Below, piece by piece: positions 1 to 19,137 of a DNA stretch of 64,000 nucleotides. The stretch is from positions 194 through 64,193 of the forward strand of contig JANQFG010000037.1 in assembly GCA_028277985.1 (NCBI GenBank). Direction: 5' to 3'. The stretch comes from a bacterium. Its GTDB lineage: Bacteria > Desulfobacterota > DSWW01. Each line of letters starts with the position of its first letter. The first letter of the stretch is position 1. Under the pieces are notes generated by a model, which was not told the origin of the DNA, did no database searches, and saw only the letters and a list, made by a program, of their open reading frames with translations. Both the position numbers and the translations under genes were made by a program.

Positions 1-261
1 CGTGTCCAGGACCAGGATGTATCCGTCCGTTTCCGGCAGGGAAGAGCGGAGCACGTCAAAGCTGAGGGTATAGTTGGATGTGACGAAGACAGGCGATGCG
101 GCGGTCGGATTGCCGAGGGCGTAGAGACCGGCCTCGACCCTGTGTTCGCTTCTCTTGTAGCCCCAACGTGCCAGGAAATGATCCCATCGGTTTGCCGTGG
201 TGATTGTGCTGTCCGTCTGTCGGACAGGGGCGGCGGCGCCCGCCGGGTGGGACTCTGTCAT
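1..261 (-). CDS. hgcA: Mercury methylation corrinoid protein HgcA, N-terminal part (runs off the window edge)
   Basis: Not in the ORF track. Manual translation from ATG at 261: MTESHPAGAAAPVRQTDSTITTANRWDHFLARWGYKRSEHRVEAGLYALGNPTAASPVFVTSNYTLSFDVLRSSLPETDGYILVLDT. This matches the HgcA/CdhD-like pattern RWG..R...V..GLYA.G.P...SPV.VT.NY.LSFD.LR..L...D..ILVLDT that directly precedes the N(V/I)WCAAGK cap helix, which lies outside the window. RBS AGGGAG upstream; 13 bp after the hgcC-like gene. Confidence 0.88.
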   Translation of the reverse strand, partial: MTESHPAGAAAPVRQTDSTITTANRWDHFLARWGYKRSEHRVEAGLYALGNPTAASPVFVTSNYTLSFDVLRSSLPETDGYILVLDT

Positions 262-274
262 GGGGTGTCTCCCT

Positions 275-574
275 TCAGCCCTTTATGATCTCTTCCATCA
301 TCGGCCCGAGAAGCCCTTTGATGGAGGCTCCGAACTCGTCCGCCTTGATCAGGGAGAGGCAGCAAACCCTGCCCTCTCTTTCCCAGCTGATCACGGCCAG
401 CTTGTCCCCCGCCTCGATCCCGGCCCTGTCCCGGAGGTCTTTCGGGAGAACGATCTGCCCCCTGCCGTCGATCGCGACCAGCGCGTCCACCCTGCAGCCG
501 CTCACACCCCGGGCGGCCTCTTTCGAATCTGTAGGGCAGCATGCGGCTTCCGTCTCTTCAACTCGTTTTTCCAT
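275..574 (-). CDS. hgcC: HgcAB-associated AbrB/MazE/SpoVT-fold protein (HgcC-like), Cys-rich
   Basis: Start MEKRVEET at 574. AbrB signature IDGRGQIVLPKDLRDRAGIEAGDKL; Cys motifs AACC, GC and RVCC; immediately upstream of hgcA. Confidence 0.8.
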   Translation of the reverse strand: MEKRVEETEAACCPTDSKEAARGVSGCRVDALVAIDGRGQIVLPKDLRDRAGIEAGDKLAVISWEREGRVCCLSLIKADEFGASIKGLLGPMMEEIIKG

Positions 575-608
575 GGGATCCGACCCTTTGTTGCATTGAT
601 TCCAATAT

Positions 609-658
609 TTCAGTATAGTCTGAATTATCAGAATAGTGCAAATCCCGTTTGTTGTCAA
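609..658 (-). promoter_or_regulatory. Sigma70 promoter of hgcC-hgcA with overlapping repeat/palindrome (putative operator)
   Basis: Minus strand TTGACA (658-653), 17 bp, TATTCT (635-630). Direct repeats TCAG(T/A)ATAGT at 610-619 and 628-637; palindrome TCTGA-ATTA-TCAGA at 619-632. Confidence 0.65.
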
Positions 659-720
659 TCCCCTATTTCAGCGAATATGATTTGCCTGATACCTCTATAC
701 CGGATGGGAGGCGGTGAATC

Positions 721-1242
721 ATGCTGCTCCAGACCTACAGGAAGGAGATCTTCCGCTCCAAATGTCAGTCCACGGTCGAATCGCTCCACTGCTTCGGCCA
801 TCTTGACCAGGACGTCGGCGAAGCCCTTCCCTATCTGAACGCGGTGCTTGGCGGGTTCGAGTACACAAGAGATCCCCCTTCGGTCACGTTCAAGGCGCAC
901 GGGAAGCTGATCACCGTGCACCCCCGGAAGATCGCCATCAACGCGCTCCGGGACGAGCAGGAGGCGGACAAGATCCTGGAGTGGCTCAAGGGCGAGATCA
1001 ACGAGGCGTGGGAGCGGCGGCCGGAAATCGAGCCATGTTTCGAGGGGCGCCCCAGACCGAGGATCATCGAGGTCCTGAAGCTACTGCCCAAGACCAACTG
1101 CAGGGAATGCGGTGAGGCAACGTGCATGGTCTTTGCCACGCGCGTGGTGGAGGGCGTGAAAGGCGCTGACGACTGCCCGCCCCTTGCACCCCAGAACCAG
1201 GAGAGGCTCAGGAACTACATGGCGGGATTCCGTCTGGACTGA
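721..1242 (+). CDS. (Fe-S)-binding protein with C-terminal AcsC/RnfB-type FeS domain (PF04060-like)
   Basis: C-terminal LPKTNCRECGEATCMVFA...DDCPPL (Cx2Cx4Cx16C); RBS GGAGG. Confidence 0.8.
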   Translation: MLLQTYRKEIFRSKCQSTVESLHCFGHLDQDVGEALPYLNAVLGGFEYTRDPPSVTFKAHGKLITVHPRKIAINALRDEQEADKILEWLKGEINEAWERRPEIEPCFEGRPRPRIIEVLKLLPKTNCRECGEATCMVFATRVVEGVKGADDCPPLAPQNQERLRNYMAGFRLD

Positions 1243-1253
1243 GGAGACGAAGA

Positions 1254-2084
1254 ATGCCCAAAGTGCGCATCAACGAAGTCGAGCTCGCATATCGTGTTCG
1301 GGGGAACGGAGATCCGGTGGTCCTGATCGGCGGATTCACGATGGTCAAGGAATCGTGGGGTCTTCAGGTCAAAGACCTTGCACGGCACTTCCGGGTGATC
1401 ACACTGGACAACCGGGGGGTGGGCGAAACCGGGATTCCGGCCGGGCCGTTCCAGGTCTCGGACATGGCCGCCGACACAGTGGGCCTGTTGGATGCCCTGG
1501 ACATTGACGCAGCCCATGTCTTTGGTGTGTCGATGGGAGGGCTCATCTCTCAGATTCTGGCCCTGGACCACCCGGATCGGGTGAGGAAGGTCGTGCTCGG
1601 ATGCACCACGCACGGTGGAAGCCGCGCGGTTCGGCCGACCCAGGAGGTGATGGCAGCCCTCGGCAGGGCAACCGATCCTGCCGTGCCGGTCGAAGAGGCG
1701 GTGCGCAACTGGGTGCCCATCATGTTTTCGGAACGGTTCATGCGCGAAGAGCCGGACCGGCTCGGGGAGTTCATTCGGTTTTCCGTTCAGAATTGGCCCA
1801 GCCCGGAAGGGGCCGCCGGCCAGATCGGCGCCTTGAGTGTGTTCAATGTCCGCAGGCGCCTCGGTGAGATCCGGTGCCCGGTGCTGGCCATCGCAGGAAG
1901 CGAGGACCGCATGATGCCTCCTGAGAACGCGAGGCTCCTGGCAGAGGGGATTGCGGATGCCGAGCACTACCTGGTGGACGGCGCGGGCCACGGCTTCTTC
2001 TTTGAGAAGCCGGACGAGGTGGACAGCGTCTTGCTCGACTTCCTCCAAAAGGAACAGGGTCCCCCTGATGCAACTCAGGGGTGA
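1254..2084 (+). CDS. Alpha/beta fold hydrolase (enol-lactonase/lipase-like)
   Basis: DNRGVG, nucleophile GVSMGG, acid SED, AGHG catalytic His; RBS GAGGAG. Confidence 0.9.
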   Translation: MPKVRINEVELAYRVRGNGDPVVLIGGFTMVKESWGLQVKDLARHFRVITLDNRGVGETGIPAGPFQVSDMAADTVGLLDALDIDAAHVFGVSMGGLISQILALDHPDRVRKVVLGCTTHGGSRAVRPTQEVMAALGRATDPAVPVEEAVRNWVPIMFSERFMREEPDRLGEFIRFSVQNWPSPEGAAGQIGALSVFNVRRRLGEIRCPVLAIAGSEDRMMPPENARLLAEGIADAEHYLVDGAGHGFFFEKPDEVDSVLLDFLQKEQGPPDATQG

Positions 2085-3280
2085 ACAAGCGCGATCTTCA
2101 CCACCCGGTTCTTGCCCTTTTCGAAGAACAGATCGATCGCCTTCGGGTAATCCTGTGCCGGGAAGGTATGGGTCACGAAACCGCTGAAATCCAATCTCCC
2201 CTCCCTGTAAAGGGTGAGTGCCACGTCAAAGGAATTCATCTCTTCTCCGCGGAAGACCTCTCGTCCGTGGCAGTTGATGCCAAGCAGCTTCACCTCCTGG
2301 AACCACACCGGCGAGTAATCGAGCCTCTTTGGGGAGAAGTTGATCCCGACGACCACGACACTCCCTTCACTCCTGGCCCACCGAAGGGCATCCTTGAGAC
2401 TCCTGTCGTTTCCGACCGTGTCGTAAATGACGTCGAACCCCCCGATCACCATCTCGTTGTTGAAGGGGCCTTCGAAGTGTCTCCCGCCCGTGATCTCGGC
2501 GACCCGTCGGTAGGCACCCTTCTCCTCCACGACGCCCGACGCCCCCAGGGCCTCTGCCATTTCCGCCTGGTGGGGATACCGGTAGGTGGCATAGACCTCT
2601 GCTTCCGGATACAGGGCCCGGGCGATTCCGATGAGGCTCAGGCCGATCGCCCCGGTGCCGATGACCAGCACCTTCTCACCCTCCCTGGGCGGCCGTTTGA
2701 GGACCGCTCGGACCGCGCAGGCCGTCGGTTCGATCAGGATCGCGTGTTCGTCCGGCATTTGCTCATCGATTTTGATGAGCTGTGTTTTGTGCATTACCAT
2801 GTACTGAGAGAACCCTCCCCCCACATTCAGTGGCAGGTCCTCCCGGCCCGGCTCCTCGCACAAGGGATAGTTGCCCCTGGCGCATTGCCTGCACATGGGG
2901 GCCCTCTCCTTCTGAAAGCAGCTGGGCCAATCGATTCTCTGGATGACCCTGTCCCCCGGGCGGAAGTCACCGGCCCCCTCTCCAGCCTGGATCACCTCGC
3001 CGACCATCTCGTGGCCCAGGAACTTTCGGGGCAAGGGCGGAACTGCGGCCGGCGCGACCCTCGGGTCGATCTCCATGAAGATGAAGTGTACGTCGGAGCC
3101 GCACAGCCCGCACATCCGGTTCTTCACCTTGACCCAGTTGGGCCCGGGCAAATCCGGCTCTTCCACCTCGGCGTATTTGAGCGGGGACAGGGGCGACAGG
3201 GGGGCCTTCTTCCAGACCGTGGAGAGGGCCTTGATGACAGCGATTCTCTTCGGGTCGGCATCGAAATACAGGGCTTTCAT
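2075..3280 (-). CDS. Zinc-dependent alcohol dehydrogenase (MDR family)
   Basis: CGSD, GHE, structural Zn C...CRQC...C, GTGAIG Rossmann motif. Start MKALYF at 3280 (alternative 3322). Overlaps the convergent hydrolase by 10 bp. Confidence 0.9.
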   Translation of the reverse strand: MKALYFDADPKRIAVIKALSTVWKKAPLSPLSPLKYAEVEEPDLPGPNWVKVKNRMCGLCGSDVHFIFMEIDPRVAPAAVPPLPRKFLGHEMVGEVIQAGEGAGDFRPGDRVIQRIDWPSCFQKERAPMCRQCARGNYPLCEEPGREDLPLNVGGGFSQYMVMHKTQLIKIDEQMPDEHAILIEPTACAVRAVLKRPPREGEKVLVIGTGAIGLSLIGIARALYPEAEVYATYRYPHQAEMAEALGASGVVEEKGAYRRVAEITGGRHFEGPFNNEMVIGGFDVIYDTVGNDRSLKDALRWARSEGSVVVVGINFSPKRLDYSPVWFQEVKLLGINCHGREVFRGEEMNSFDVALTLYREGRLDFSGFVTHTFPAQDYPKAIDLFFEKGKNRVVKIALVHP

Positions 3281-3595
3281 AAGGCGTGCCTTCTCACGTT
3301 GTTTGCTACGGCTTCGGTTCATTCGAGAGGATCCGACGGGATATCGATTATCCTGAAAGAGAGGATGGAAGCAAGGGGCCTATCCCCCTCTGCCGCACGT
3401 CGTTCCGGCCGGGTCGCCGCCGTAGGGTGGAAGCCACGGCTGTCCCCGAGAAAAAAATAATGTTTTACTTGATTGGGGGCGGAGAAGTGTGATAGAACGC
3501 AAGAAATCGCTTTACATGCAGGATCACTCTTTGTTAGAAGATCTTGCATTGGTTCCCTGGCCGAAAGCACCCTCAACAAAAGCAGGAGGTTGAAG

Positions 3596-3934
3596 ATGAA
3601 GATGTGGAGACTTTGCTTTTTGTCGCTGATCTGTTCCGGACTGTGTCTTGCCATCGGATTGGGCGGCTGTGGAGACAATCCTTGCGAGAATGCCGAACCA
3701 AGCACATGTGCATCGATAGCGTTTGCAGTTCCGGACGGTTGCCTGGTCGTCAGGGAAGATGATTTTGCCTGTACTTGCTGTAGCTCCGACGGTGGCATCC
3801 TATGTGATACGCCGGGGATAAGGATACCCGATCCACTTCCCCCGCTAGATTGTGGTCTGGACGAGGTGGAGAGTTCATGGGATGAGAACACGAAGAGCTG
3901 TATCCCAGAGTGCCCCCCACCCCTCTTCGGCTGA
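3596..3934 (+). CDS. Small cysteine-rich lipoprotein, hypothetical
   Basis: RBS AGGAGG, signal peptide with lipobox LGGC, 10 further Cys in the mature part. Confidence 0.7.
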   Translation: MKMWRLCFLSLICSGLCLAIGLGGCGDNPCENAEPSTCASIAFAVPDGCLVVREDDFACTCCSSDGGILCDTPGIRIPDPLPPLDCGLDEVESSWDENTKSCIPECPPPLFG

Positions 3935-3997
3935 ATGGTTTCGCATTGAAAGAATGAAAACAAAGGGGACAATCCGTCCGGACCGTCACGCTTGCCG

Positions 3998-4552
3998 TCA
4001 ATTTCCGAACAAGGTCACGTAGCCGTCGAGGAGCATATTGAAGTAGGCGGCGCCGCTTTCCACGGACAGACCCAGGACGACGAGGACGAACACGACGACG
4101 GGAACAAAGGGCAGCAGGGTCAGAACTCTGACGCTGTTGCCCTTTCTTTTTGAGACCCACCGGCAGATGACTTCGAGAATGCCCATACAGGCGAAGCTCC
4201 ATGTAAACAGGATGGAGCCGATGTTCACCCCGTAGTAAATCGTCTCGATGCAGGGGAATGCCTCGCTCAGGTTGTAAGAGTCGATGAAGACCCAGACGGT
4301 GAGGTTCGTCGAGCCGGCAGCGATCCTCTCTGCAGCTGTGGCCCCTCTGAAGTACGTGACCGGGTAGACGAGCACTGCCACAAGCACGACGCTGGCGAAC
4401 TGGACCATTCCTGCAAGCACGGCGACCGCATGGTACAGGGCCTGGCTGTCGATATGGTAGGCGTTGAGGTACACGGCCCGTGAAGCGATCATGACCGTGA
4501 GGGCTACGCCCGCGGGAATGAGAAATCTGTCTGCAAAGCTCGAACGTTCCAC
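3998..4552 (-). CDS. Hypothetical integral membrane protein
   Basis: About 5 hydrophobic segments; follows the sulfatase on the same strand; GTG start. Confidence 0.7.
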   Translation of the reverse strand: MERSSFADRFLIPAGVALTVMIASRAVYLNAYHIDSQALYHAVAVLAGMVQFASVVLVAVLVYPVTYFRGATAAERIAAGSTNLTVWVFIDSYNLSEAFPCIETIYYGVNIGSILFTWSFACMGILEVICRWVSKRKGNSVRVLTLLPFVPVVVFVLVVLGLSVESGAAYFNMLLDGYVTLFGN

Positions 4553-4595
4553 GTGTTTCTTTCCTATCGGACGTGCTCATCCGTCATCGTGAGGA

Positions 4596-5978
4596 TCAGA
4601 ATTCCCCGCCCCGTTTCAGATCTTCGAGCTTTGCCCCGAGCACCTTCGCGATTCTCTTTCCCTCTTCCGTGTGGATCAGGTTGCGGGTCTGGCGCGGATC
4701 GTTCTCAAGATCGTACAGCTCGCGTCCACGCCGTCCCTCGAACTCGATGTAAATGTGCTCTTGCGTCCTGACCGCGTGGCTCGAGGGGACCCGAAAGGGG
4801 AAATCTGCCCGGTATTCGTACAACCAGGCCTGTCTGCCGGGGATGAAATCGGATTTCAGGAACGGAACGAAGCTTGTTCCCTCCATACTGTCCGGAATCG
4901 GCACCCCGGCCATCTCGAGCAGGCTGGGCGCCAGGTCGATGTTCAGGATCATCTGATCCGCCACTCTGCCCGTCTGCGTCATGAATCCCGGGGCCCGCAC
5001 GAGGAAGGGAATACGGATCGATTCCTCGTAGGGCCATCTCCCGGTGCCCCCCCGTTTGTGCTCCCCCCAGAAGAAGCCGTTGTCGCTTGCGAAAACCACG
5101 ACGGTGCGGTTGTAGGTCCCGAGCCGGTCCAGCCGGTCGAGGAGCCTTCCGATCTGGCGGTCGAGGGATGTGACCACACGGGCGTAGTCCCTGTACAACC
5201 CGGCCGGTCGTCCGATCAATCCCTCGAAGAGATTTCCGCCCGTGATGAATACGAGAGGATGGAACTCGGGTGGAAAAGGCGGATTCCGGGTCGTGTACAT
5301 GTCGGCCAGGTCGGGCGGGGGCCGCCAGGGGTGATGCACCGCCTTGTGAGACAGGACCAGGCAGAACGGGCCCTTGCGTGGCCTCGAGATGAACTCCAGA
5401 GCGTAGTCCGTGAGCTCTTCGGTGATGTATCTCTTCTTGGAGGGAGTCTCCATCCCATTCACAATAAGGGGACAATCAAGGTATCTGCCCTGTCCCTTCT
5501 GGGAGATGAAGGTTACAAAGGGATCGACGCCCCGCAGCTCGGGCAGACTGCCCGGCATGTGCCATTTGCCGATGAAGGCGGATTCATAGCCTGCCCTTGC
5601 CAGGAGTTCCAGGAAGGTCACGTTCTCGTCCTTCCAGGGAGTCAGGTTGTCACGGACACCGTGGGTGCGGGCCATCTGTCCGGTCAGGAAGCTCGCCCGG
5701 CTCGGACTGCAAAGGGACGTCGTGACGAAGGCGTTCGAAAACCGTATGCCTTCACGGGCGAGGCGGTCCAGATTCGGAGTGAGCACGAAGGGGTGGCCGG
5801 CGCACCCCATGAAATCGGCTCGCTGGTTGTCGGAGAGAATGAAGACGATGTTGGGGGGCCGGTCGAGATCTTCGGCTACTACCGACCAGGCACCGGTAGG
5901 GAATCCGACCGTGAAGAGGATCACGGCAACTCGGATCGCCCTGCGCGAACGGTGCATCCTTTGAAGGAGGTTGGTCAT
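4596..5978 (-). CDS. Sulfatase (N-acetylglucosamine-6-sulfatase-like), probably exported
   Basis: PNIVFILSD, CSPSRASFLTG (formylglycine site), GKWH, ASDNG, YEESIRIP, ELYDL..DP. The real start is near 5978; the upstream part of the ORF is antisense to the nitrilase gene. Confidence 0.92.
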   Translation of the reverse strand: MTNLLQRMHRSRRAIRVAVILFTVGFPTGAWSVVAEDLDRPPNIVFILSDNQRADFMGCAGHPFVLTPNLDRLAREGIRFSNAFVTTSLCSPSRASFLTGQMARTHGVRDNLTPWKDENVTFLELLARAGYESAFIGKWHMPGSLPELRGVDPFVTFISQKGQGRYLDCPLIVNGMETPSKKRYITEELTDYALEFISRPRKGPFCLVLSHKAVHHPWRPPPDLADMYTTRNPPFPPEFHPLVFITGGNLFEGLIGRPAGLYRDYARVVTSLDRQIGRLLDRLDRLGTYNRTVVVFASDNGFFWGEHKRGGTGRWPYEESIRIPFLVRAPGFMTQTGRVADQMILNIDLAPSLLEMAGVPIPDSMEGTSFVPFLKSDFIPGRQAWLYEYRADFPFRVPSSHAVRTQEHIYIEFEGRRGRELYDLENDPRQTRNLIHTEEGKRIAKVLGAKLEDLKRGGEF

Positions 5979-6038
5979 TCCGTGCGAATCCCGGCATGCG
6001 ATGGAGCGGGTGGCATCCAGGGCCTCCCCTGGCTCCGA

Positions 6039-6066
6039 TTGTCTTCTCGCTTCGGGTTGATATAAT
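6039..6066 (+). promoter_or_regulatory. Putative sigma70 promoter (extended -10) of the nitrilase-family gene
   Basis: TTGTCT, 16 bp, TGnTATAAT; 39 bp before the ATG at 6105. Confidence 0.5.
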
Positions 6067-6104
6067 CCAAAAGTGATACGAAAACAACCGCAAGGGGATG
6101 ACCC

Positions 6105-7052
6105 ATGAAAGTTGTCGTCTGCCAGACGAGCCCTGTGCTGTTCGATGTCCAGGCCAACCTGGAAGAGGTGATTCAGAAGATCCAGGAAGCCCGCGGAAGG
6201 GGGGCGGACCTCGTCGTCTTTCCCGAACTCGCACTGACCGGGTATTTTCTGGGCCAAAGGTACCACGAAGTCGCCCTGAGACTGGACTCGGAAGAGATCA
6301 GGCGGTTGGCCGCGGCCACGCGAGGGACGGCGGCCGTCGTGGGCTTCGTCGAGGAATCTCCCTCCATGAACTTCTACAACTCCGCCCTGGTGGCCGTGAA
6401 CGGCGAGATCGTTTACGCCTACCGCAAACTCAACCTGCCCAACTACGGCGTGTTCGAAGAGCGAAAGTACTTCTCTCCGGGCAAGCAGATCCCCGTGTTC
6501 AAGTATCACGACATGTCCATGGCCGTGTTCATCTGCAATGATCTGTGGCATCCTTCCCTCCCCTACCTGGGCATTTCCCAGAAGGCGGAGGTTCTGGTGA
6601 CGATCTTCAACTCTTCGCAGGGGTCGATGGGGAGCGAGTTCAGCAATATCGAGAGCTGGGGAATCATCAACACCTTCTACGCCCGCATTTTTGGTGTTTA
6701 CAATGTGTGTGCCAACCGGGCAGGGAAGGAAACCCTGGAGGTCAAGGAGTCCGTCACGGAAGGCCTGGTGTCCGGCCAAAAGAAGGGAGAGGAGGCTGGC
6801 AAGGAGCCTGCCAAGGAGCCCGTGAAGACGACCTACAGTTTCTGGGGTGGAAGCGAGATCGTCAACCCCTTTGGAAAGCAGATTGCCAAGGCGGCCATGC
6901 ACCAAGAGGACCAGATCGAGGCGGAGATCTCGCGCGACCTGCTCCGTCAGAAAAGAATCCTTCTGCCCTACTTGAGAAACGATGATCCATACTTCACCCA
7001 CCGTGAGCTCGACCGAATCCTGTTCGATATGGGCGGGAGGCGCCAGTCCTGA
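6105..7052 (+). CDS. Carbon-nitrogen hydrolase (nitrilase superfamily, NAD-synthetase glutaminase-like)
   Basis: E-K-C triad: FPELALTGY, YRKLNLPNYGVFEERKYF, ICNDLWH. Confidence 0.9.
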   Translation: MKVVVCQTSPVLFDVQANLEEVIQKIQEARGRGADLVVFPELALTGYFLGQRYHEVALRLDSEEIRRLAAATRGTAAVVGFVEESPSMNFYNSALVAVNGEIVYAYRKLNLPNYGVFEERKYFSPGKQIPVFKYHDMSMAVFICNDLWHPSLPYLGISQKAEVLVTIFNSSQGSMGSEFSNIESWGIINTFYARIFGVYNVCANRAGKETLEVKESVTEGLVSGQKKGEEAGKEPAKEPVKTTYSFWGGSEIVNPFGKQIAKAAMHQEDQIEAEISRDLLRQKRILLPYLRNDDPYFTHRELDRILFDMGGRRQS

Positions 7053-7077
7053 CCCGGGTCCTCTGGAAAGTATTCGA

Positions 7078-9780
7078 ATGAAGAAGAAGCCGACCTATGA
7101 GGATCTCGCCAAGCGGGTCGGGGAGCTGGAGCGGGAAGCCCTCGAACGAGATGGGCAGAACACAGCCCTCCTCGAACAGGCGGAAATCCTGCGACTACTC
7201 CTGAACACCCCTTCCTTGAGCGCCATACTTCTGGATCTTGATTTCAATGTCATTGCGGCGAACGCGATTGCTGCACAGAGAGTAGGCAAGGAGGTCGACG
7301 AGCTCGTCGGGATGAGCCCCCGTGACTATCTGTCCGCAGACCGCGCCGCCTTGAGGTCGGCCCGAGCCGAAGAAGTGGTTCGGTCGGCGCAGCCTGTCGT
7401 CTTTCAGGATGAGCGTGACGGACGACACTACGAGAACCGCCTTGATCCCGTCTTTGATGCTGAGGGCAACATAAGAGCGATCGCAGTATGCACACGGGAC
7501 ATCACCGAGACCCAGCACGCTATTGACGCCCTGCTCGAGAGCGAGGAGAACTTCCGGTTCTTGGCCGAGAATGCGAACGACGGAATCCTGATTGCCTCTG
7601 GAAAAGGTTCCCATGTCTATGCAAACAGGCGGGCATCCGAGATCACCGGGTACACCGTTCAGGAGTTGCTGCAAACGGAGATACGGGACCTGGCCCATCC
7701 GGACGAGCTGCCGGCCATATTGGAGAAATATGCGAAAAGACTCAAAGGCGAGGAATTCCCACGGACGTATGAGACGAGGATCGTCCGAAAGGACGGCGTG
7801 ACCGTTCCGATCGAGTTGACGGGCGCGAAAACCACCTGGAAAGGAGAGCCCTCGGACCTGGTCCTGATCCGTGACGTGACCGAGCGCTCGAGAATCGAGA
7901 CCGAGCTCCGGGGGAGCGAGGAGCGTTTTCGCGCGATCTTCGAGGGTGCTCTTGATGCCATCCTCCTGGTGGAACCGGAAACCGGGAACATCCTGGACGC
8001 GAACCCGACCGCTTCGGAGCTTCTCTGGAAGAGCCAGGAGGAGATCGTTGGGCTGCATTATCGGGAGCTGTTCCCGTCCCGGTGGATGGAAAGGGTGGAC
8101 AGGGCGTACGAGAGTCTGTTCGAGGAAGAACGAACCATTACGCTCGAAACGGACCTGCTCCGCTCCGACGGAAGAGAGGTGCCTGTCGAGGTGCTGGCAC
8201 AGCTCATCCAGATCGATGGAATCCCGGTCATCCATGCTCTCGTTCGTGACATCACGGATCGCAAGAGGATGGACAAAGAGCTTCGCGACAGTGAAGAGCA
8301 GTTTCGCACCCTTGCCGAGGCATCCCTGGCCGGAATATTCATCTACCGGGATGGTCTGTTCCGGTATGCAAACCCTGCACTCGGCCGCATGTTCGGCTAT
8401 GGGGTTTCGGAGATGGTCGGCAGGATGGGGCCGATCGACCTCGTCCGACCGGAAGACCGCGAGGCAGCGAATGCGTATGCCCGAAAGAGCCTCAAGGGTG
8501 GAGCGGAAGAGATCCCGGTGTTCTCCTTTCGAGGGGTGAAGAAAGACGGCCGCCCGATCGACTGCGAGGTGTTGCAAGCAGGGATTCAGTACAGGGGAAG
8601 GCGCGCCTTCATCGGGACCATTCTGGACGTAACCCGGCGCAAGCTGATGGAGGAAGAGCTTCTGAAGACCCAGAAGCTCGAATCCCTGGGCGTGCTCGCA
8701 GGCGGCATTGCCCATGACTTCAACAACATCCTCACGGCGATCTCCACGAACATTTCGATGGCGAGGCTGTACGGGGATCTGGAAGATGACATTTCTCAGA
8801 TGATGGCGGACGCGGAAAAGGCGTCGGTTCGAGCAAAGGCCCTGACACAGCAATTGCTCGCTTTTGCACGGGGCGGCGCGCCGATTCGTAAGAACGTCCC
8901 CCTGGCGAAGGTCCTCAGGGAAAACACCGAGTTCGCCCTGAGCGGATCGAACGTGAATTATGTCTCCTCCATCCCGAAGGATCTCTGGCAGGTGGAAGTG
9001 GATGAGGGACAGATTGGGCAGGTGCTCCACAACCTGGTCATCAATGCCGTGCAGGCCATGCCGGAGGGGGGCAGCATCCGGGTGGGGGCTCGGAACGTTT
9101 CCCCGCGAGATCTAGCCGCTCTTCCCCTCAAGCCCGGCAGGTACGTGAAGGTCTTCGTGAGTGACCAGGGGATCGGGATACCCGAGAGACACCTGAACAA
9201 CATTTTCGATCCCTTCTTCACGACCAAGCAGAAGGGGAGCGGCCTTGGCCTTACCTCCTCCTTCACCATCGTAAGGAATCACGAGGGACACATTCACGTG
9301 GATTCCAAGGTGGACAAGGGGACGACGGTGGATGTCTACCTGCCCGCTTCGGAGGAAACGAGTGCCTCGGAGAAAGGGGCCGAAGAGGCACTCCGTCCAG
9401 GAAAGGGAAGGGTGCTGTTGATCGACGATGAGCGAATGATTCGAAGGGCCGGCCGCGAGGCACTGGCGCGTCTGGGCTACGATGCGACACTTGCCTCGGA
9501 TGGAGCAGAAGGAAGCAGGCTGTATGTGGAGGCGATGAGGGAAGGGCGGGGCTTCGACGTCGTCCTGCTGGACCTGACCATTCCGGGTGGTATGGGGGGG
9601 AAGGACACGGTCCGGGATTTGCTGCGAATCGATCCGAATGCGAAGGTCATCGCTTCCAGCGGCTATTCGAACGATCCGCTCATGGCTGACTACAAGGCGT
9701 ACGGCTTCCGGGAAGTGATCGTCAAACCCTACAGGGTCGAAGACCTGGGCGAGGTGTTGCACAGGGTATTGGAAGGATAG
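7078..9780 (+). CDS. Cytoplasmic hybrid sensor histidine kinase (4 PAS, HisKA, HATPase, REC)
   Basis: Repeated DITE/DITDR PAS ends, [11 protein letters not shown]-box, FDPFFTTK...GSGLGL, C-terminal receiver (LLDLTIPG). Confidence 0.93.
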
Positions 9781-9905
9781 AATCGAAGCATCCTACCCTT
9801 TTCCTCTGGTACCAACTCCTCAGGAACGGTCCGTTGATGAATCCGTTGTGACCGCAGTAGCGCTGAATGCCGGGGAGATCCGTTCGTTACACTCAAGGCA
9901 GCTGG

Positions 9906-11798
9906 CTACTCCCATACGCACACGTCATCCGGGCCCCCGTCGTCGGTGAAGAAGAGGCTTCCCTGGAAGTCCTGTGTAAAATCGGTTCCGGTGAACACCA
10001 CCTGGTAGTGGCCGTCCGCGCCGGGTGAAAAGGTGACCGGCCAGATGAACGCGAAGGAGGCCTGGAAGGAATCGGTCTCGTCGAAGGCGAATCCTTCTCC
10101 ATCATTCTTGTCTTCGTACAGCCAGAGCCTGTGTTCGAAAATGTTCGTCAGGGGCTGTCCGTTCTGCAGCACGTCGAAATCCACCTGGAAGCCTTCGACC
10201 GGATCGTTTCGTTTGGTGCAGGTGATCTCTACGGAAGGGTCGAAGGGATACACGAGCATGTCAAAGGTGGCCTCGGCGGTCTGGTTCGTCGGGGCCGTGG
10301 CCGTCACATGGATGGAGTACGTCCGCCCTCCAGGCTCGCCCGTGAGGCCCGGGGCTCGCAGCGCCCACATGGTGGTGGCCGGTGGAGTGGTCTCCACAAC
10401 CGGGGTACAGTCGGAAACGTCCGGTTCGACACAATTCAAGATATCAATCTGCATCTCACTCATTGCGTTGTTCGTCGCGGTAACGATCTCGATTTCCATG
10501 CTGCTGTCGAATCGGGGGAAGCCCGTCGGGCCGAACTGCAACTGGGGCGTGGCGTAGAAGCTTATGATGTCGAAGTCGCCCTCGATGAGGCACGTAGCGG
10601 AGCACCCGTCACCGTCATCATTGTTTCCGTCGTCGCACTCCTCCCCGGGATCGACATTGCCGTTCCCGCAAAACGCAAGTTCAAGCTGACAGTCATTCGT
10701 GCAACCGTCGCCGTCCGTGTTGTTCCCGTCATCGCACTCTTCCCCCTGGCTGGTGCACGTCATGCCGTCTCCGCAGAACTCCACCAAGCAGGAGGCGGAA
10801 CACCCATCACAGTTCAGGTTGGCCCCGTCGTCGCACTCCTCCCAGGGGTCCGGAATGCCGTCGCCACAGAAGGTCCAGGTGCAATCGTTTCGGCAACCGT
10901 CCGTATCGTTCCCGTTGCCATCGTCGCACTGCTCTCTGGGATCCTGGATCCCGTCGCCGCAGGCCTCGATGGTGCAGTCCGCCCTGCACCCGTCCCCGCC
11001 GGTTGTGTTGCCATCGTCGCATTCCTCACTCGGATCGAGAGTACCGTCCCCGCACCCGTCCACCTGCGACGCCGTGTGGAAGGGCCAGAACTCCTCACCA
11101 ATCATCGGGTTTCCGTCCGTATCCCTCACGGACCCGATGCGGACGAGATACAACTTGTCGAAATCGAGATCTTCGTGGGGAACGAACAGGATATCGGTGC
11201 CCTGGACAATGCGATCTCCCTCGATGATCCCGTCGAAAATTCGGTCTACCCAGAAGTGGGTTTGTGTGACAAACGCGGGATCCATGTCCTTGTCAAAGGT
11301 CACCCTGATGACCGCGTAGACGGGCACACCCCTGGCATCCCTCTCAGGAAACATGGATACCACCATCGGCGGGACGCCTGTTCCGGGAGGGGGCTCCGTG
11401 GTGAACGACCAGACGTAGTCCTCCAGCATTCGAAAGCCGAATGTTTGTGTCCTTACGTCCGCCTTGATGGTCGCCGTGTAGGTGGTCTCATACTCGAGAG
11501 GAGACTCCGAGACAAACCTGAACGTACCCTCTTTGGCCGGGGTAGGGCAGCTGGTGCACATGGTGATCAAGAACGGGGTCACAGGGCCTGTCGGTGATTC
11601 CAGAAGAAAAGTCGATGCATTCACGCTCGAGGAGGCCATTGGGGCCGAGAATGCTACGAGCAAATCCGTTTCGACCGGAAAATTGACTCCTTCATCCTCC
11701 GGCTGGGTCCAGGTGACAACGGGATCGCATCCCGTGACTAGCAGGAAACCGAGAAATACGTACAGAAGGGCCATGAGCCGGGTCTTTTCTCTTTTCAT
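9906..11798 (-). CDS. Surface lipoprotein with two Big_5 Ig-like domains and Myxococcus Cys-rich (DUF4215) repeats
   Basis: Lipobox VTGC; FSAPM...WSFTT and FDKDMD...WPFHT Ig-like domains; five CGDG...EECDDGN...DGC...C repeats. Confidence 0.85.
   Translation of the reverse strand: MKREKTRLMALLYVFLGFLLVTGCDPVVTWTQPEDEGVNFPVETDLLVAFSAPMASSSVNASTFLLESPTGPVTPFLITMCTSCPTPAKEGTFRFVSESPLEYETTYTATIKADVRTQTFGFRMLEDYVWSFTTEPPPGTGVPPMVVSMFPERDARGVPVYAVIRVTFDKDMDPAFVTQTHFWVDRIFDGIIEGDRIVQGTDILFVPHEDLDFDKLYLVRIGSVRDTDGNPMIGEEFWPFHTASQVDGCGDGTLDPSEECDDGNTTGGDGCRADCTIEACGDGIQDPREQCDDGNGNDTDGCRNDCTWTFCGDGIPDPWEECDDGANLNCDGCSASCLVEFCGDGMTCTSQGEECDDGNNTDGDGCTNDCQLELAFCGNGNVDPGEECDDGNNDDGDGCSATCLIEGDFDIISFYATPQLQFGPTGFPRFDSSMEIEIVTATNNAMSEMQIDILNCVEPDVSDCTPVVETTPPATTMWALRAPGLTGEPGGRTYSIHVTATAPTNQTAEATFDMLVYPFDPSVEITCTKRNDPVEGFQVDFDVLQNGQPLTNIFEHRLWLYEDKNDGEGFAFDETDSFQASFAFIWPVTFSPGADGHYQVVFTGTDFTQDFQGSLFFTDDGGPDDVCVWE
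10581..11054 (-). repeat. Five tandem Cys/Asp-rich coding repeats (about 31-35 aa each)
   Basis: CG(D/N)G-x-E(E/Q)CDDG-x-DGC-x3-C repeated five times. Confidence 0.9.
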
Positions 11799-11972
11799 GC
11801 TTCCGCCTCCCCCGGGTGGTTTCGGTCATGCCGGTTTGATTCCTTTTCACCCTCGGCGGATACAGGAGGGAGGGGAGATTGACCCGCGGGCGGGACTTGT
11901 ATTATGGAATAGAATCCCTAGGGGGGACATGGACCGACGATTCATTCACAAGCTCTTTCCGGAGGTGGCGAA

Positions 11973-12605
11973 ATGACGGAATCCGCATCGCAGGCTCTGT
12001 CGATTCTGAGAGATCCTTCCCAGTTCGAGTGGTACGTGGTGCCCCTGCTCGTCCTGGTGATCTACGTTTACAACGTGGAGGTAGGAAAGCGGAACTGGAA
12101 CCTTGTCTTCGGCGGGCTCGCCCTCTGGGGGATGGACTGGTTCAACGAGATATGGAATGCCCTCGTCTTTCACTTCACCCAGTACGCCCCGGTCTGGGGG
12201 GCTCCGGCCGACACCGCCTTTCTGCTGCTGATCGGGCTCAACATCGAGATCTGCATGATGTTCTTCATCCTCGGGATCGTTGCGGCGCACACCCTGCCGG
12301 AAGACAAGGGTGCGAAGATCATGGGGCTGCCGAACAGGCTCGTCTACGCGGTCGGGTACTCCATCGTGGCGGTTGTCATCGAGATGTTTCTCAACGCCGC
12401 GGGCGCACTGACCTGGGACTACTCCTGGTGGACGATCAAGGTCCCCTGGCTCATCTTCCTGATCGGCTACATGCCTTTCTTCCTCGTCTGTTTCTGGGTC
12501 CATGACATGGAGACGGTCAAGAAGAAGGCGATCACCGTGGGCTTGATACTCGGGTTTGACGCGGTCTGTCTGATCCTGTTCGGCGCGATCCTCAAGTGGA
12601 TCTAA
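11973..12605 (+). CDS. Hypothetical multi-pass membrane protein
   Basis: About 6 hydrophobic helices; RBS GGAGG; GC-rich third codon positions. Confidence 0.8.
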   Translation: MTESASQALSILRDPSQFEWYVVPLLVLVIYVYNVEVGKRNWNLVFGGLALWGMDWFNEIWNALVFHFTQYAPVWGAPADTAFLLLIGLNIEICMMFFILGIVAAHTLPEDKGAKIMGLPNRLVYAVGYSIVAVVIEMFLNAAGALTWDYSWWTIKVPWLIFLIGYMPFFLVCFWVHDMETVKKKAITVGLILGFDAVCLILFGAILKWI

Positions 12606-12686
12606 CAGGACGTTCTTGGCTGCCCGTGAATCTGCATGTAACGAGGCAAGGGCACCCACATGGAGAGGTGGGAGGTGGGGTCTCTG

Positions 12687-12862
12687 GTGCGATCGCCTGT
12701 TCCGTATCGGTTTTCGCAGGTCGACTCGTGGAGGCTTCCCGAGTCCCCGCGTGCATATCGAAGGACTTCGCGCTCGGCGCCCAAGTTTCGCCGTGTGGGA
12801 CGAGGGACTCCGTTGCCGGAACACGGAGACCAAGGAAACCGATACGGAACAGGCGATCGCAC
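12687..12862. mobile_element. MITE-like non-autonomous element with perfect 27-bp terminal inverted repeats
   Basis: GTGCGATCGCCTGTTCCGTATCGGTTT (12687-12713) and its exact reverse complement (12836-12862); flanks CTG| and |TAG; internal hairpins; no credible coding sequence. Confidence 0.65.
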
Positions 12863-13935
12863 TAGTAGGAGCCCACATACTCCGGTTTCATGCCCGACAT
12901 GAAGTGGTCGAGCCCCGGCAGGCCGTCGTCCGACAGGGCCATGAGGGGGCCGACCAGCCCTGGAAACCGGAAATAGAGGCTGTGCATGAGTAGTTTCTGC
13001 GGATTGTTCAGCCAGCGATTCCGGTACCAGCTCAGTTTGTAGCCTCTGTTGAAACGCTTGAAGTCCTGTGCGGCGCCTTCCGGGTCCGTGACTGCACGAG
13101 CGGCGATCCGGCCGGAGAGCAGCGCGCCGTGTATGCCGAAGTAGGAGCCGGGCTCCATCATGCCGGCCAGGGTGCCGGCCAGGATCTTGCCGTCCCAGAA
13201 GAGCCTGGGTGCGTCCGGCCTTCCCATGGGGACGTAGACCTCGAAAGCGTCCCATCGGTCGAAGCGGATCCCTTCACTTCTTTCGAGCTCCTCCTCGAAC
13301 TTTCTGAGATTCCCCTGCGACAGGTCACGGTCCGAGAAGAGCAGTACGTAGTCGAGCTCGTTGTTGATGGGTCCGTAGCCGTAGGTGTTCGTGTAGGTGC
13401 CGAACCAGGTTCGTATATCACCCTGACGCTCCGGATCCGATACCTTTCGAGTGGCAGAGAAACAGGGCAGGCGAACGCAGGGGCGGTCCAGGGCATCGTA
13501 CATCTCCCGGAAAAGGCCCGTGGCCAGGATCGCCGGGTCCGGCACATCCGATGGATGGGATATCACCTGACCGAATTCGAACTTCACGCCTCCCTTCAGG
13601 GCCAGATCGTAAAGGAACGTGTCCAGGGAGGTCTTGCGAGGGCCCCGCTCGACAGAGTAGCAGTTCCAGGAGAGGCTGTACCTGCGGCCCTTCAGGTGAA
13701 CGTACATGTGATTCTGGGGGACGAGGCACTGGGTGATGTCGATCCCCACATAGTTCTTGAGGAGATCGATGTTCACGGGTGTGGAGTGATTGGACGGGTG
13801 GTGGGGATGAAGTCCCCCGATCGATTTCGCCCGTTCGAGCACAGTGACATCGTGGCCTTCCCTGGCGAGGCAGATAGCGGCCACCAGGCCGGACAGGCCG
13901 GCCCCCACGATGTGTACCTTCCGACCTTCTGTCAT
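12862..13935 (-). CDS. FAD-dependent oxidoreductase (geranylgeranyl-reductase-like)
   Basis: N-terminal GAGLSG...LER dinucleotide fold; AGTLAGMMEPGSYFGIHGALLSGRIAA (GD-type motif variant). Start MTEGRK at 13935. Confidence 0.85.
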   Translation of the reverse strand: MTEGRKVHIVGAGLSGLVAAICLAREGHDVTVLERAKSIGGLHPHHPSNHSTPVNIDLLKNYVGIDITQCLVPQNHMYVHLKGRRYSLSWNCYSVERGPRKTSLDTFLYDLALKGGVKFEFGQVISHPSDVPDPAILATGLFREMYDALDRPCVRLPCFSATRKVSDPERQGDIRTWFGTYTNTYGYGPINNELDYVLLFSDRDLSQGNLRKFEEELERSEGIRFDRWDAFEVYVPMGRPDAPRLFWDGKILAGTLAGMMEPGSYFGIHGALLSGRIAARAVTDPEGAAQDFKRFNRGYKLSWYRNRWLNNPQKLLMHSLYFRFPGLVGPLMALSDDGLPGLDHFMSGMKPEYVGSY

Positions 13936-13958
13936 GGGTGCACCTCCCGGGCTTGCGC

Positions 13959-14531: not shown

Positions 14532-14562
14532 GGTTTTCGGGTCCCTCCTTGCCTTCGTTGCG

Positions 14563-15987: not shown

Positions 15988-16008
15988 TCTCTTCCCTCTG
16001 GGCTGTGC

Positions 16009-17361: not shown

Positions 17362-17365
17362 GGGA

Positions 17366-17878: not shown

Positions 17879-17989
17879 GATGTTGTCTCCTTCTCCCTTT
17901 TTGAAATCGCACGGCGGAAGCCGCCTTTAGAACAATAGAAAAAAAGCGGATTGTGTGTCAAAGTGGGCGGCATGAGGCACTCGCCGCCC

Positions 17990-18066
17990 ATTGCGAGCGT
18001 CAGCGAGGAGATCCCCCTCGCCCAATGGCCTTCTGGGCTTGGGGGTTGCTCCGCTTCGCTCGCAAT
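17990..18066. repeat. REP/RPE-like long imperfect palindrome
   Basis: ATTGCGAGCG...AGCG..GAGATCCCCC paired with GGGGGTTGCT.CGCT.CGCTCGCAAT; preceded by hairpin TGGGCGGC/GCCGCCCA (17964-17990). Confidence 0.65.
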
Positions 18067-18141
18067 ATCCGCACAGTGCGTTCAAGTGCTCGTGTGCAAG
18101 CGTGACAAGTTGCGGTCTACCATTGTCGAGGAGGAGCAAAC

Positions 18142-18963: not shown

Positions 18964-19137
18964 CGCTTGGCCGAAAAATTCCTAGCATTTCCAGCATGTT
19001 AGAGGGACGCCCTCCTCTGGACAGGCGGATTTCGATCCGATACTCTGAGAGTAGAATTGCTTTGCCTTGACTCCGTCTCGTTGCCGTCAGGATGGGTGCC
19101 GGGACCGTTCTTGAAGAGACCGAAGAAGAGCGGGAAC

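What the first reader, a model, noticed from the sequence alone, without database searches (positions are those of the whole stretch)
1..261. Unannotated hgcA at the window edge: the organism is a probable mercury methylator
Seen: an 87-codon open frame running off the left edge, absent from the ORF track, with the conserved pre-cap-helix sequence of HgcA (RWG...GLYALGNP...SPVFVTSNYTLSFD.LR...ILVLDT). Established: hgcA plus hgcB are the genetic marker for methylmercury production. The N-terminus has no AcsC-type Fe-S domain, which argues for HgcA rather than CFeSP gamma. Inference from memory only: the DHFLARWG / NYTLSFD variant and the upstream hgcC look more like Chloroflexota/Methanomicrobia HgcA than typical deltaproteobacterial HgcA (NYKLSFD), so the gene may be horizontally acquired.
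Basis: partly seen in the sequence, partly recalled or inferred. Interest (0 to 1): 0.8.

Follow-up and report, generated by a model that had tools for sequence, protein, structure and literature searches.

The report
Complete mercury-methylation operon, split by assembly
The open frame at the window's left edge is the start of a genuine hgcA gene whose other half and partner hgcB lie on an overlapping contig, so this Desulfobacterota bacterium can probably make methylmercury, using a gene version that resembles those of Chloroflexota and methanogens rather than those of its own relatives.

Summary
Observation confirmed. Window 1-261 (minus strand) encodes the first 87 residues of HgcA. The contig gives 64 more codons, which contain the cap-helix motif with its Cys. 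The rest of hgcA and hgcB lie at the end of contig C245, which overlaps the window's contig by exactly 99 bases. The joined gene has 335 codons and no internal stop. HgcB and the upstream HgcC each pass their NCBIfam cut-offs.

The transfer idea is largely supported. Full-length identity to the own HgcA is 80% for one congener, a median of 62.5% for 44 Chloroflexota, a median of 60.1% for 18 Methanobacteriota, and only 38.5% for another congener. The split has 100/100 support, and an AU test rejects one clade for the family's HgcAs (p 0.0038). The contig is not mis-binned, because its flanks are collinear with congeners. Two of those congeners have an empty site where the 1.6-kb hgcC-A-B block sits.

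hgcC is shared with archaeal loci, not with Chloroflexota (0 of 47). This is a new member of a known kind, and hgcAB transfer is already widely reported.

The parts
1..261 (-). 5' part of hgcA (codons 1-87 of 335). The gene continues on C5:1-193 and then on contig C245 (C245:24774-25426). hgcB is C245:24499-24771 (minus strand), outside the window.
   Evidence: ORF; extension with cap-helix motif; NF040863 236.5 bits; C-half 241.2 bits and HgcB 107.6 bits, cut-off 99; exact 99-base contig overlap; joined ORF of 335 codons without internal stop
275..574 (-). hgcC: 99-aa AbrB/MazE-fold protein directly upstream of hgcA (13 nt between its stop and the hgcA ATG). It is a putative regulator with an invariant vicinal Cys pair.
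   Evidence: NF040962 HgcC 112.7 bits, cut-off 70; Pfam MazE_antitoxin 27.4 bits; gap of 13 nt; Cys71-Cys72 conserved in 19 of 19 homologues
575..720 (.). AT-rich (42.5% GC) divergent intergenic region. It holds two promoter-like sites (window 658-630 on the minus strand, 652-681 on the plus strand) and an element conserved in all four congeners, including those with the empty site.
   Evidence: promoter scan: 2 sites found against 0.3 expected (L001 coordinates minus 193); junction alignment A3; GC
721..1242 (+). 173-aa protein with a C-terminal PF04060 Fe-S domain. It is an extra insert in this genome, lacking in G004, and is not linked to hgc.
   Evidence: Pfam FeS 52.7 bits; G004 lacks window 636-1241; close orthologues (59-65%) only in G016, G025 and G032, none of which had an HgcA hit
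1254..2084 (+). alpha/beta hydrolase gene: the conserved right flank of the hgc insertion site, present in G001, G003 and G004.
   Evidence: Pfam Abhydrolase_1 112.3 bits; 84.0% nt identity to G003, 82.6% to G004, 81.0% to G001
2075..3322 (-). zinc-type alcohol dehydrogenase gene: a second presence/absence difference, present in the own genome and G004 and missing in G003 and G001.
   Evidence: Pfam ADH_N/ADH_zinc_N; synteny breaks at window 2045/3442 in G003 and 2046/3453 in G001

Best explanation
Window 1-261 (minus strand) is the start of a genuine, intact hgcA. The gene only looks truncated because the assembler (k = 99) broke the contig inside it. Contig C245 overlaps by exactly 99 bases and carries the rest of hgcA and hgcB, whose ATG lies 2 nt after the hgcA stop. 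The operon is hgcC-hgcA-hgcB, 1,596 bp, driven from a divergent AT-rich intergenic region.

Inferred from established knowledge of the family, not shown here: HgcA is a membrane-anchored corrinoid protein whose cap-helix Cys (Cys94 here) ligates cobalt. HgcB, a 2x[4Fe-4S] ferredoxin, reduces the cofactor. The methyl group is passed to Hg(II) to give methylmercury. The organism is therefore a probable mercury methylator.

The host is a Desulfobacterota bacterium; a congener's named record is titled Syntrophobacteria. Its HgcA and HgcB belong to the lineage dominated by Chloroflexota and methanogenic archaea, not to the lineage carried by other members of its own genus and family. The block was therefore most likely acquired from outside the phylum by an ancestor, not recently. 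It has since been inherited and in places deleted. Congeners G003 and G001 have an empty site at exactly this position, and G004 has a filled one.
For: Identity of the gene:
- NF040863 scores 236.5 bits for the N-half (profile positions 1-139) and 241.2 bits for the C-half (108-323).
- The cap-helix motif lies at residues 91-98 with Cys94, and hydrophobic segments span residues 180-333.
- HgcB scores 107.6 bits against a cut-off of 99. It has two CxxCxxCxxxCP motifs, Cys70 and a C-terminal CxC.
- HgcC scores 112.7 bits against a cut-off of 70.

The contig join:
- The overlap is an exact 99 bases held by only these two contigs, and 139 contig-end pairs in the assembly share exact 99-base overlaps.
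- A single 1,431-nt blastn alignment to G004:C95 spans the junction.
- A Logan contig of run X1 (0 differences) runs 720 bases past the start of C5. X1 may be the source sample.

Not mis-binned:
- Window 1228-19994 and C245:21926-24417 are collinear with G003:C34 and G001:C24 at 70-90% nt identity.

Foreign type:
- The best 80 of 577 relatives in genome contigs are 47 Chloroflexota, 18 Methanobacteriota, 5 Thermoplasmatota, 2 Thermodesulfobacteriota, 5 singletons of other phyla and 3 unlabelled.
- Full-length identity to the own HgcA is 80.2% for G004, 65.9% for G008, median 62.5% (max 68.2%) for Chloroflexota, median 60.1% for Methanobacteriota, 38.5% for G001 and 41-44% for the rest of the family.
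- The split of 10 other Desulfobacterota against the remaining 51 rows has SH-aLRT/UFBoot 100/100. The own sequence lies inside a 33-row bacterial clade (24 Chloroflexota) at 99.5/94. PMSF quick trees and FastTree show the same split.
- The AU test rejects one clade for the family's five HgcAs: delta lnL 99.1, p 0.0038.
- HgcB shows the same affinity: 64-66% to Anaerolineae against 41-48% within the family.

Empty and filled site.
Against: - Neither half alone reaches the 275-bit whole-protein cut-off, and the joined protein was not scored against the curated model.
- The join rests on one assembly plus a Logan contig from what may be the same sample, and the 720 extra bases were not compared with C245.
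- No activity or expression data exist; no RNA run was listed.
- The 80 named loci were chosen as best matches to the query, so they over-represent its own lineage.
- Branches between the own clade and the 33-row node have UFBoot of 79 or less, so nesting within Chloroflexota is not resolved and the donor is unknown.
- hgcC is missing from all 47 Chloroflexota loci, which argues against a simple Chloroflexota donor.
- Block GC (62.0%) is within about 1 SD of the genome (58.6 +/- 3.0), so composition gives no sign of recent arrival.
- On the rpoB tree ((own, G003), G004), the filled/empty pattern needs at least two events.
- Lin et al. 2023 (PMC10083202, passages read) argue for mainly vertical descent with extensive loss.
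Confidence: 0.82

Rival explanations
1. No horizontal transfer. Two ancient HgcA paralogues (or one ancient gene with very uneven rates) were inherited vertically and lost differentially, so the host lineage simply kept the 'Chloroflexota/archaeal' paralogue.
For: Both types occur in the host's small class: the own type in 3 of 9 genomes (own, G004, G008), the other type in 3 of 9 (G001, G005, G007), and neither in 3 of 9. The own + G004 + G008 topology fits kinship (90.6/96). GC is not anomalous. Lin et al. 2023 (PMC10083202, passages read) favour vertical descent with extensive loss. The AU test rejects family monophyly, but ancient paralogy predicts that result too.
Against: The own HgcA is as similar to the best Chloroflexota sequence (68.2%) as to the same-class G008 (65.9%), and it is close to methanogens (median 60.1%). 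Vertical descent predicts much deeper cross-phylum and cross-domain divergence than within-class divergence. The 33-row clade also mixes single Gemmatimonadota, Acidobacteriota, Bacillota and Latescibacterota rows. No genome examined carries both types.
Confidence: 0.12
2. The contig is a mis-binned piece of a Chloroflexota (or other) genome, so the hgcA does not belong to the Desulfobacterota host.
For: The bin is large (8.85 Mb against 3.8-6.5 Mb for congeners) with 7.85% contamination. The nearest named HgcAs outside the genus are Anaerolineae.
Against: Both flanks are collinear with contigs of three independent congeners at 70-90% nt identity. G004 carries the same hgcB-hgcA-hgcC-hydrolase arrangement on one contig. 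The GC of C5 (58.9%) and C245 (59.4%) matches the genome (58.6%).
Confidence: 0.02
3. The frame is a CFeSP gamma subunit (AcsC/CdhE) or an HgcAB-like fusion paralogue rather than HgcA, or it is a truncated pseudogene.
For: Pfam sees only the shared CdhD domain (54.9 bits). The closest solved structures by sequence are CFeSP gamma subunits (E 3.5e-11). The genome does hold a 360-aa HgcAB-like fusion on C178 and weaker CFeSP-like hits on C263 and C265.
Against: The CdhE model scores 69.1 bits against a cut-off of 306 and the fusion model 149.6 against 285, compared with 236.5 bits for HgcA on less than half the protein. There is no N-terminal Fe-S domain, and a stop lies just upstream of the ATG. 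hgcB is a separate gene. The joined frame is intact.
Confidence: 0.02

Closest known systems
HgcA/HgcB of Anaerolineae and other Chloroflexota MAGs, and of Methanoregula, Methanospirillum, Methanolobus, Methanocella and Methanomassiliicoccales (loci L020-L098)
   Same: Same HgcA lineage: 52-68% full-length identity, NYTLSFD and DHFLARWG-type motifs, and the short first loop of the membrane domain. hgcB lies directly downstream. The archaeal loci also carry hgcC upstream.
   Different: The host here is a Desulfobacterota bacterium. The Chloroflexota loci lack hgcC (0 of 47), so the three-gene architecture matches the archaeal loci while the HgcA/HgcB sequences sit with the bacterial clade.
HgcA of the host's own genus and family (G001, G005, G007), the NYK-type found in the other Desulfobacterota examined
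   Same: Same family (each over the NF040863 cut-off at 426-439 bits), the same cap-helix motif and membrane domain, and hgcB downstream.
   Different: Only 38.5-44% identical to the own HgcA. It has no hgcC and sits at a different chromosomal site, which in the own genome holds other genes.
Corrinoid iron-sulfur protein gamma subunit (AcsC/CdhE; PDB 4C1N, 2H9A/2YCL, 4DJD)
   Same: Homologous corrinoid-binding domain: residues 41-146 align to chain residues about 318-424, E 3.5e-11; Pfam CdhD.
   Different: HgcA has no N-terminal [4Fe-4S] domain and no TIM-barrel part. It has a Cys-bearing cap helix and a C-terminal membrane domain. The CdhE model scores far below its cut-off (69.1 against 306).
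AbrB/PrlF/MazE-like 'putative archaeal regulator' directly upstream of hgcA (ISME Commun 2023, PMC10349881, passages read); NCBIfam NF040962 'HgcC'
   Same: Same position and the same fold family. That paper found it directly upstream of hgcA in 8 of 31 confirmed methylators, 6 of them archaeal, which matches the distribution seen here.
   Different: Here it is in a bacterium. The invariant vicinal Cys pair (19 of 19) is not discussed in that paper ('cysteine' occurs 0 times in its main text). Its supplements were not seen.

Membership tests
HgcA (NCBIfam NF040863, mercury methylation corrinoid protein) | Best and specific match to the HgcA equivalog, over its whole-protein cut-off of 275 bits | tested here: inconclusive
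   The two halves score 236.5 bits (profile 1-139) and 241.2 bits (108-323), each far above the rival models. Neither fragment alone reaches 275, and the joined 335-aa protein was not scored because joined sequence was not handed to other tools. Full-length relatives score 390-460 bits.
HgcA | Cap-helix motif N(V/I)WCA(A/G)GK with the cobalt-ligating Cys (motif as given in the finding) | tested here: met
   The motif is at residues 91-98 with Cys94. W, C, A and G of the motif are nearly invariant in alignment A1.
HgcA | C-terminal transmembrane domain | tested here: met
   The C-half on C245 matches profile positions 108-323. Kyte-Doolittle hydrophobic stretches lie at 180-237, 268-294 and 306-333. 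The number of helices was not resolved.
HgcA | No AcsC-type N-terminal Fe-S domain | tested here: met
   The ATG lies 12 residues before the profile start. No PF04060 hit was found in the 151-aa piece. hgcC ends 13 nt upstream.
HgcA | Adjacent hgcB | tested here: met
   A 90-aa ORF starts 2 nt after the hgcA stop. NF040864 scores 107.6 bits against a cut-off of 99.
HgcA | Methylates Hg(II) in vivo | not testable with these tools
   No culture and no RNA holder listed.
HgcB (NF040864) | Two CxxCxxCxxxCP motifs plus additional conserved Cys, including a C-terminal pair | tested here: met
   Motifs at residues 17 and 47, Cys70, and C-terminal Cys88 and Cys90.
HgcC (NF040962, HgcAB-associated protein) | Over the cut-off, AbrB-type fold, directly upstream of hgcA on the same strand | tested here: met
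   112.7 bits against a cut-off of 70; TIGR01439 AbrB 33.4 bits; 13-nt gap to hgcA.
CFeSP gamma subunit (AcsC/CdhE, NF003195) | Whole-protein score over 306 bits and an N-terminal [4Fe-4S] domain | tested here: not met
   69.1 bits, C-terminal domain only; no PF04060 hit.
HgcAB-like fusion protein (NF043039) | A single polypeptide with the ferredoxin fused at the C-terminus, score over 285 bits | tested here: not met
   149.6 and 98.7 bits for the two halves. hgcA ends with TAG and hgcB is a separate ORF. A true fusion paralogue exists elsewhere in the genome, on C178.

The most novel reading that the evidence does not exclude
The 1.6-kb hgcC-hgcA-hgcB block behaves as a self-contained cassette. 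It sits exactly between a resident promoter region and the first gene of a resident operon, and it is cleanly absent from sister species. HgcC, with a vicinal Cys pair invariant in 19 of 19 bacterial and archaeal homologues, would be a thiol-based Hg(II)-sensing regulator (or Hg-delivery protein) that travels with hgcAB. If so, the filled and empty congeners form a natural near-isogenic series for asking what mercury methylation is for, and HgcC would be the long-sought Hg-responsive control of hgcAB in the archaeal-type lineage.
Probability: 0.2. Interest if true: 0.6.

Novelty: new member of a known kind. Interest (0 to 1): 0.33.

Why it matters
hgcAB is the accepted genetic marker for methylmercury production, so correct calls in MAGs feed directly into maps of where this neurotoxin can form. 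This case makes three practical points:
- A gene-level screen of this assembly would miss or under-score hgcA, because a k-mer break splits it over two contigs and neither half reaches the curated cut-off.
- Taxonomy assigned from the hgcA sequence alone would call this organism Chloroflexota or a methanogen, although the genome is Desulfobacterota. McDaniel et al. 2020 (PMC7438021, section 8 read) raised this general problem.
- That paper notes that individual hgcAB transfer events still need to be pinpointed. Here one genus shows two unrelated HgcA types at two different sites, each with empty-site counterparts in congeners. That is a concrete, checkable case of gain, loss or replacement.

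Tried and rejected
- **CFeSP gamma, HgcAB-like fusion and truncated pseudogene readings:** rejected on scores, architecture and the intact joined frame.
- **Mis-binning:** rejected by synteny with three congeners.
- **The 173-aa Fe-S-domain gene beside hgcC as a detached AcsC-type Fe-S module serving HgcA:** rejected. G004 lacks it, and its close orthologues occur only in three genomes without HgcA.
- **A different local genealogy (own + G004) as an explanation of the filled/empty pattern:** not supported. The own genome is closer to G003 in 5 of 8 comparable flank segments and closer to G004 in 3 of 8. In my running commentary I said 6 of 8, which was wrong; the count is 5 of 8.
- **Mobile-element signatures at the cassette:** find_trnas was not run. 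There was no Rfam hit in the whole window, and I saw no repeats flanking the block in the junction alignment. No transposase search was done.
- **Composition:** uninformative.
- **Expression:** no RNA holder was listed. Run X2 laid nothing.
- **The name 'hgcC' in print:** 0 papers hold hgcC together with hgcA and hgcB. 'hgcC' alone gave only unrelated meanings among the 10 listed of 208.
- **Unfinished or failed runs:** the treekit 'careful' search never finished and one script timed out. Quick PMSF trees, FastTree and a separate IQ-TREE LG+F+G4 run were used instead. The first AU call (27) was unfinished and was completed. I named the family group from the kinship labels, but only after seeing alignment A1 and the quick tree.
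- **Not run:** Hg-MATE HMMs were not available. Structure prediction, complex prediction and the large protein searches were not used because they would not have changed the verdict. Supplements and external figshare trees of the papers were not seen, and they may already show this clade.

Full report
**1. The observation**

The ORF listing with open ends shows an 87-codon frame on the minus strand, with its ATG at window 261, running off the left edge.

The window is G000:C5:194-64193 in an 8,852,784-base, 291-contig assembly with completeness 95.69 and contamination 7.85. The contig therefore offers only 193 more bases. They extend the frame to 151 aa and bring, two residues after LDT, the cap-helix motif with its Cys.

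Against NCBIfam the 151-aa piece scores:
- 236.5 bits on HgcA (NF040863, profile positions 1-139 of 325)
- 149.6 bits on the HgcAB-like fusion family
- 69.1 bits on CFeSP gamma

Pfam sees only the shared CdhD domain and no Fe-S domain. By sequence, the closest solved structures are CFeSP gamma subunits.

**2. The rest of the gene**

A family search of the own genome finds profile positions 108-323 at the high end of contig C245 (240.8 bits).

- The last 99 bases of C245 equal the first 99 of C5 exactly. No third contig holds them, and 139 contig-end pairs in this assembly share exact 99-base overlaps. This is a k = 99 assembler break, not a biological truncation.
- The joined gene, built inside a script and not printed, is 1,008 nt and 335 codons with no internal stop. 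Cys94 lies in the motif, and hydrophobic stretches lie at 180-237, 268-294 and 306-333.
- A single blastn alignment of 1,431 nt to contig C95 of congener G004 spans the junction.
- A Logan contig of run X1 (1,888 nt, 0 differences) extends 720 bases beyond the start of C5. X1 may be the source sample, and the extra bases were not compared with C245.
- Two nt after the hgcA stop lies a 90-aa ferredoxin. It has two CxxCxxCxxxCP motifs, Cys70 and a C-terminal CxC, and it passes the HgcB cut-off (107.6 against 99).
- Thirteen nt upstream of hgcA lies a 99-aa AbrB/MazE-fold gene that passes the HgcC cut-off (112.7 against 70).

The operon hgcC-hgcA-hgcB is 1,596 bp. It is preceded by a 146-bp, 42.5% GC divergent region with two promoter-like sites, against 0.3 expected.

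**3. Who is the host, and is the contig its own?**

Window 1228-19994 is collinear with G003:C34 and G001:C24 (same genus) at 73-90% nt identity. C245:21926-24417 continues the same collinearity on the other side. The contigs therefore belong to this genus.

A named record in genome contigs (L019) has an HgcA crop identical to that of congener G004, and it is titled Syntrophobacteria (phylum Thermodesulfobacteriota). I use only that label. In the tool's own scheme the class has just 9 genomes.

**4. Gene tree against kinship**

Among 41 relatives including the own genome, 13 have a match over the HgcA cut-off. Within the genus, G001 and G004 do. G002 and G003 have only a hit of about 165 bits, of the kind that in the own genome is the C178 fusion paralogue.

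Alignment A1 shows two types. Full-length identity to the own HgcA:

| Compared with | Identity to own HgcA |
|---|---|
| G004 (same genus) | 80.2% |
| G008 (same class, other family) | 65.9% |
| G001 (same genus) | 38.5% |
| G005, G007 (same family) | 41-44% |
| 44 Chloroflexota | median 62.5%, max 68.2% |
| 18 Methanobacteriota | median 60.1% |
| 5 Thermoplasmatota | median 55.0% |

A scan of named genomes with an alignment of the own type found 577 relatives. The best 80 are 47 Chloroflexota, 18 Methanobacteriota, 5 Thermoplasmatota, 2 Thermodesulfobacteriota, 3 unlabelled, and one each of Gemmatimonadota, Bacillota, Latescibacterota, Bacteroidota and Acidobacteriota. This set is biased towards the query's own lineage by construction.

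*Trees.* I dropped 5 rows before the first tree: L011, which is identical to L019, and four short ones (L037, L070, L083, L093). That left 89 rows including the fusion outgroup.
- The PMSF quick tree separates 78 rows (own, G004, G008, L026, Chloroflexota, archaea and singletons) from the other 10 Desulfobacterota rows and the fusion-paralogue outgroup by a starred branch of length 0.81.
- A reduced 61-row set, picked by me to span the subclades, gave the same split at 100* and at 1.0 in FastTree.
- IQ-TREE LG+F+G4 gave SH-aLRT/UFBoot of 100/100 for own + G004, 90.6/96 when G008 is added, 100/100 for the 10-against-51 split, and 99.5/94 for a 33-row bacterial clade (24 Chloroflexota) that holds the own sequence.
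- Branches between the own clade and that 33-row node have UFBoot of 79 or less, so whether the own clade is nested in or sister to particular Chloroflexota is open.
- An AU test rejects a tree holding the family's five HgcAs together (delta lnL 99.1, p 0.0038).

NYTLSFD occurs in 40 of 44 Chloroflexota, 14 of 18 Methanobacteriota and 5 of 5 Thermoplasmatota rows, while all 10 other Desulfobacterota rows are NYK-type. HgcB shows the same affinity.

**5. The cassette and its site**

- **Empty and filled sites.** In G003 the hydrolase gene (window 1254-2084 here) is followed after 161 bp by the homologues of the two genes that lie downstream of hgcB on C245. In G001 the spacer is 324 bp. The own genome has 2,330 bp there: hgcB, hgcA, hgcC and a 173-aa Fe-S-domain gene. 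G004 has hgcB-hgcA-hgcC but not the Fe-S gene.
- **Shared intergenic element.** All four congeners share an intergenic element. In the empty sites the 194-aa membrane-protein gene starts beside it. In the filled sites hgcC does.
- **Polarity.** rpoB trees give ((own, G003) 100/100, G004) 97/97, with G001 and G002 outside and G005 as outgroup. Flank identities mostly agree: G003 is closer in 5 of 8 segments and G004 in 3 of 8. The simplest history is that the ancestor of own/G003/G004 had the block and G003 later deleted it. Whether G001's empty site is primitive or another loss is open.
- **A second indel.** The neighbouring ADH gene (window 2075-3322) shows the same presence/absence pattern, which I cannot fully explain.
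- **The other HgcA type's site.** G001's hgcAB lies at another site that is empty in G003 (293 bp). In the own genome that site is occupied by a GIY-YIG-like gene and an FAD-type oxidoreductase.
- **Age of the block.** Between own and G004 the block is somewhat more diverged (78.0% nt) than the adjacent flank (83.9%). Block GC (62.0%) is ordinary for the genome (58.6 +/- 3.0). The acquisition therefore does not look recent.

**6. hgcC**

A profile built from the own HgcC finds a same-strand ORF within 700 nt upstream of hgcA as follows (tblastn gave the same result):

| Group | Loci with HgcC-like ORF / loci examined |
|---|---|
| Chloroflexota (46 with at least 400 nt upstream available) | 0 / 47 |
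| Methanobacteriota | 9 / 18 |
| Thermoplasmatota | 5 / 5 |
| G004 | 1 / 1 |
| G008 | 1 / 1 |
| Other same-phylum relatives | 1 / 7 |
| Unlabelled | 1 / 3 |

The three-gene architecture is therefore the archaeal one, while HgcA and HgcB sit in the bacterial clade. Either the Chloroflexota lost hgcC after the host lineage branched off, or the donor was not a Chloroflexota.

The gene is in print as a putative, mostly archaeal hgcAB regulator (PMC10349881, passages read: 8 of 31 confirmed methylators, 6 of them archaeal). The name HgcC appears in NCBIfam, but in no paper of the library together with hgcA and hgcB. Its Cys71-Cys72 pair is invariant in 19 of 19 homologues. That paper's main text never uses the word cysteine.

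**7. Comparison with what is known, and verdict**

hgcAB in Desulfobacterota MAGs, incongruent HgcA trees, and the clustering of Chloroflexi with Euryarchaeota are all already published (PMC7438021, section 8 read). This is a new member of a known kind.

The modest additions are:
- a split-gene pitfall for screens
- two unrelated HgcA types within one genus
- empty-site counterparts for both types
- the conserved Cys pair of HgcC

Noticed in passing
G000:C178 (L004:964-2046, minus strand): A 360-aa HgcAB-like fusion paralogue with a cap-helix variant, a membrane part and a C-terminal ferredoxin. Hits of similar score (115-171 bits on the HgcA model) occur in G001-G005 and G007, including the congeners that lack true hgcA.
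   Followed up: partly
window 721-1242 (+): A 173-aa protein whose C-terminal 33 residues are a PF04060 Fe-S domain of the kind found at the N-terminus of CFeSP gamma. It sits beside hgcC but is absent from G004. Its close orthologues (59-65%) are in three same-phylum genomes without HgcA.
   Followed up: yes
window 2075-3322 (-): A zinc-type alcohol dehydrogenase gene present in the own genome and G004 but cleanly absent in G003 and G001. It shows the same presence/absence pattern as the hgc block on the other side of the conserved hydrolase gene, which is unexplained given the rpoB tree.
   Followed up: partly
window 12684-12865: A 182-bp MITE-like element with 30-nt terminal inverted repeats (97% complementary). 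It has 14 blastn hits (11 of at least 150 nt) on 12 contigs of the own genome and dozens of hits in G003 and G004.
   Followed up: partly
window 275-574 (-) and HgcC homologues in 18 loci: A vicinal Cys pair (own residues 71-72) is invariant in 19 of 19 HgcC homologues from bacteria and archaea. Two further N-terminal Cys are present in 13 and 12 of 19.
   Followed up: partly
G000:C1:9249-11529 (L126:1250-3530): This is the chromosomal site where congener G001 carries its family-typical hgcAB. In the own genome it holds a 99-aa GIY-YIG-like gene and a 517-aa FAD-type oxidoreductase, and it is empty (293 bp) in G003. It is a second variable site.
   Followed up: partly
L061:4037-5290 and L094:4040-5284: In one Chloroflexia and one Acidobacteriota MAG the HgcB match lies in the same frame inside a 415-418-aa HgcA open frame. 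These may be natural hgcA-hgcB fusions within the own HgcA lineage, or a lost stop codon in the assemblies.
   Followed up: no
G000:C263 (L005) and C265 (L006): Weaker CFeSP-like hits to the HgcA model (75.5 and 40.5 bits). The C263 match has one in-frame TAG.
   Followed up: no
window 575-720 and the equivalent spacers in G001, G003 and G004: A conserved intergenic element (TCAG...TTGTCAA) is shared by filled and empty sites. The filled sites alone have a TTCAG...CTGAA inverted repeat beside it, which is a possible operator.
   Followed up: no
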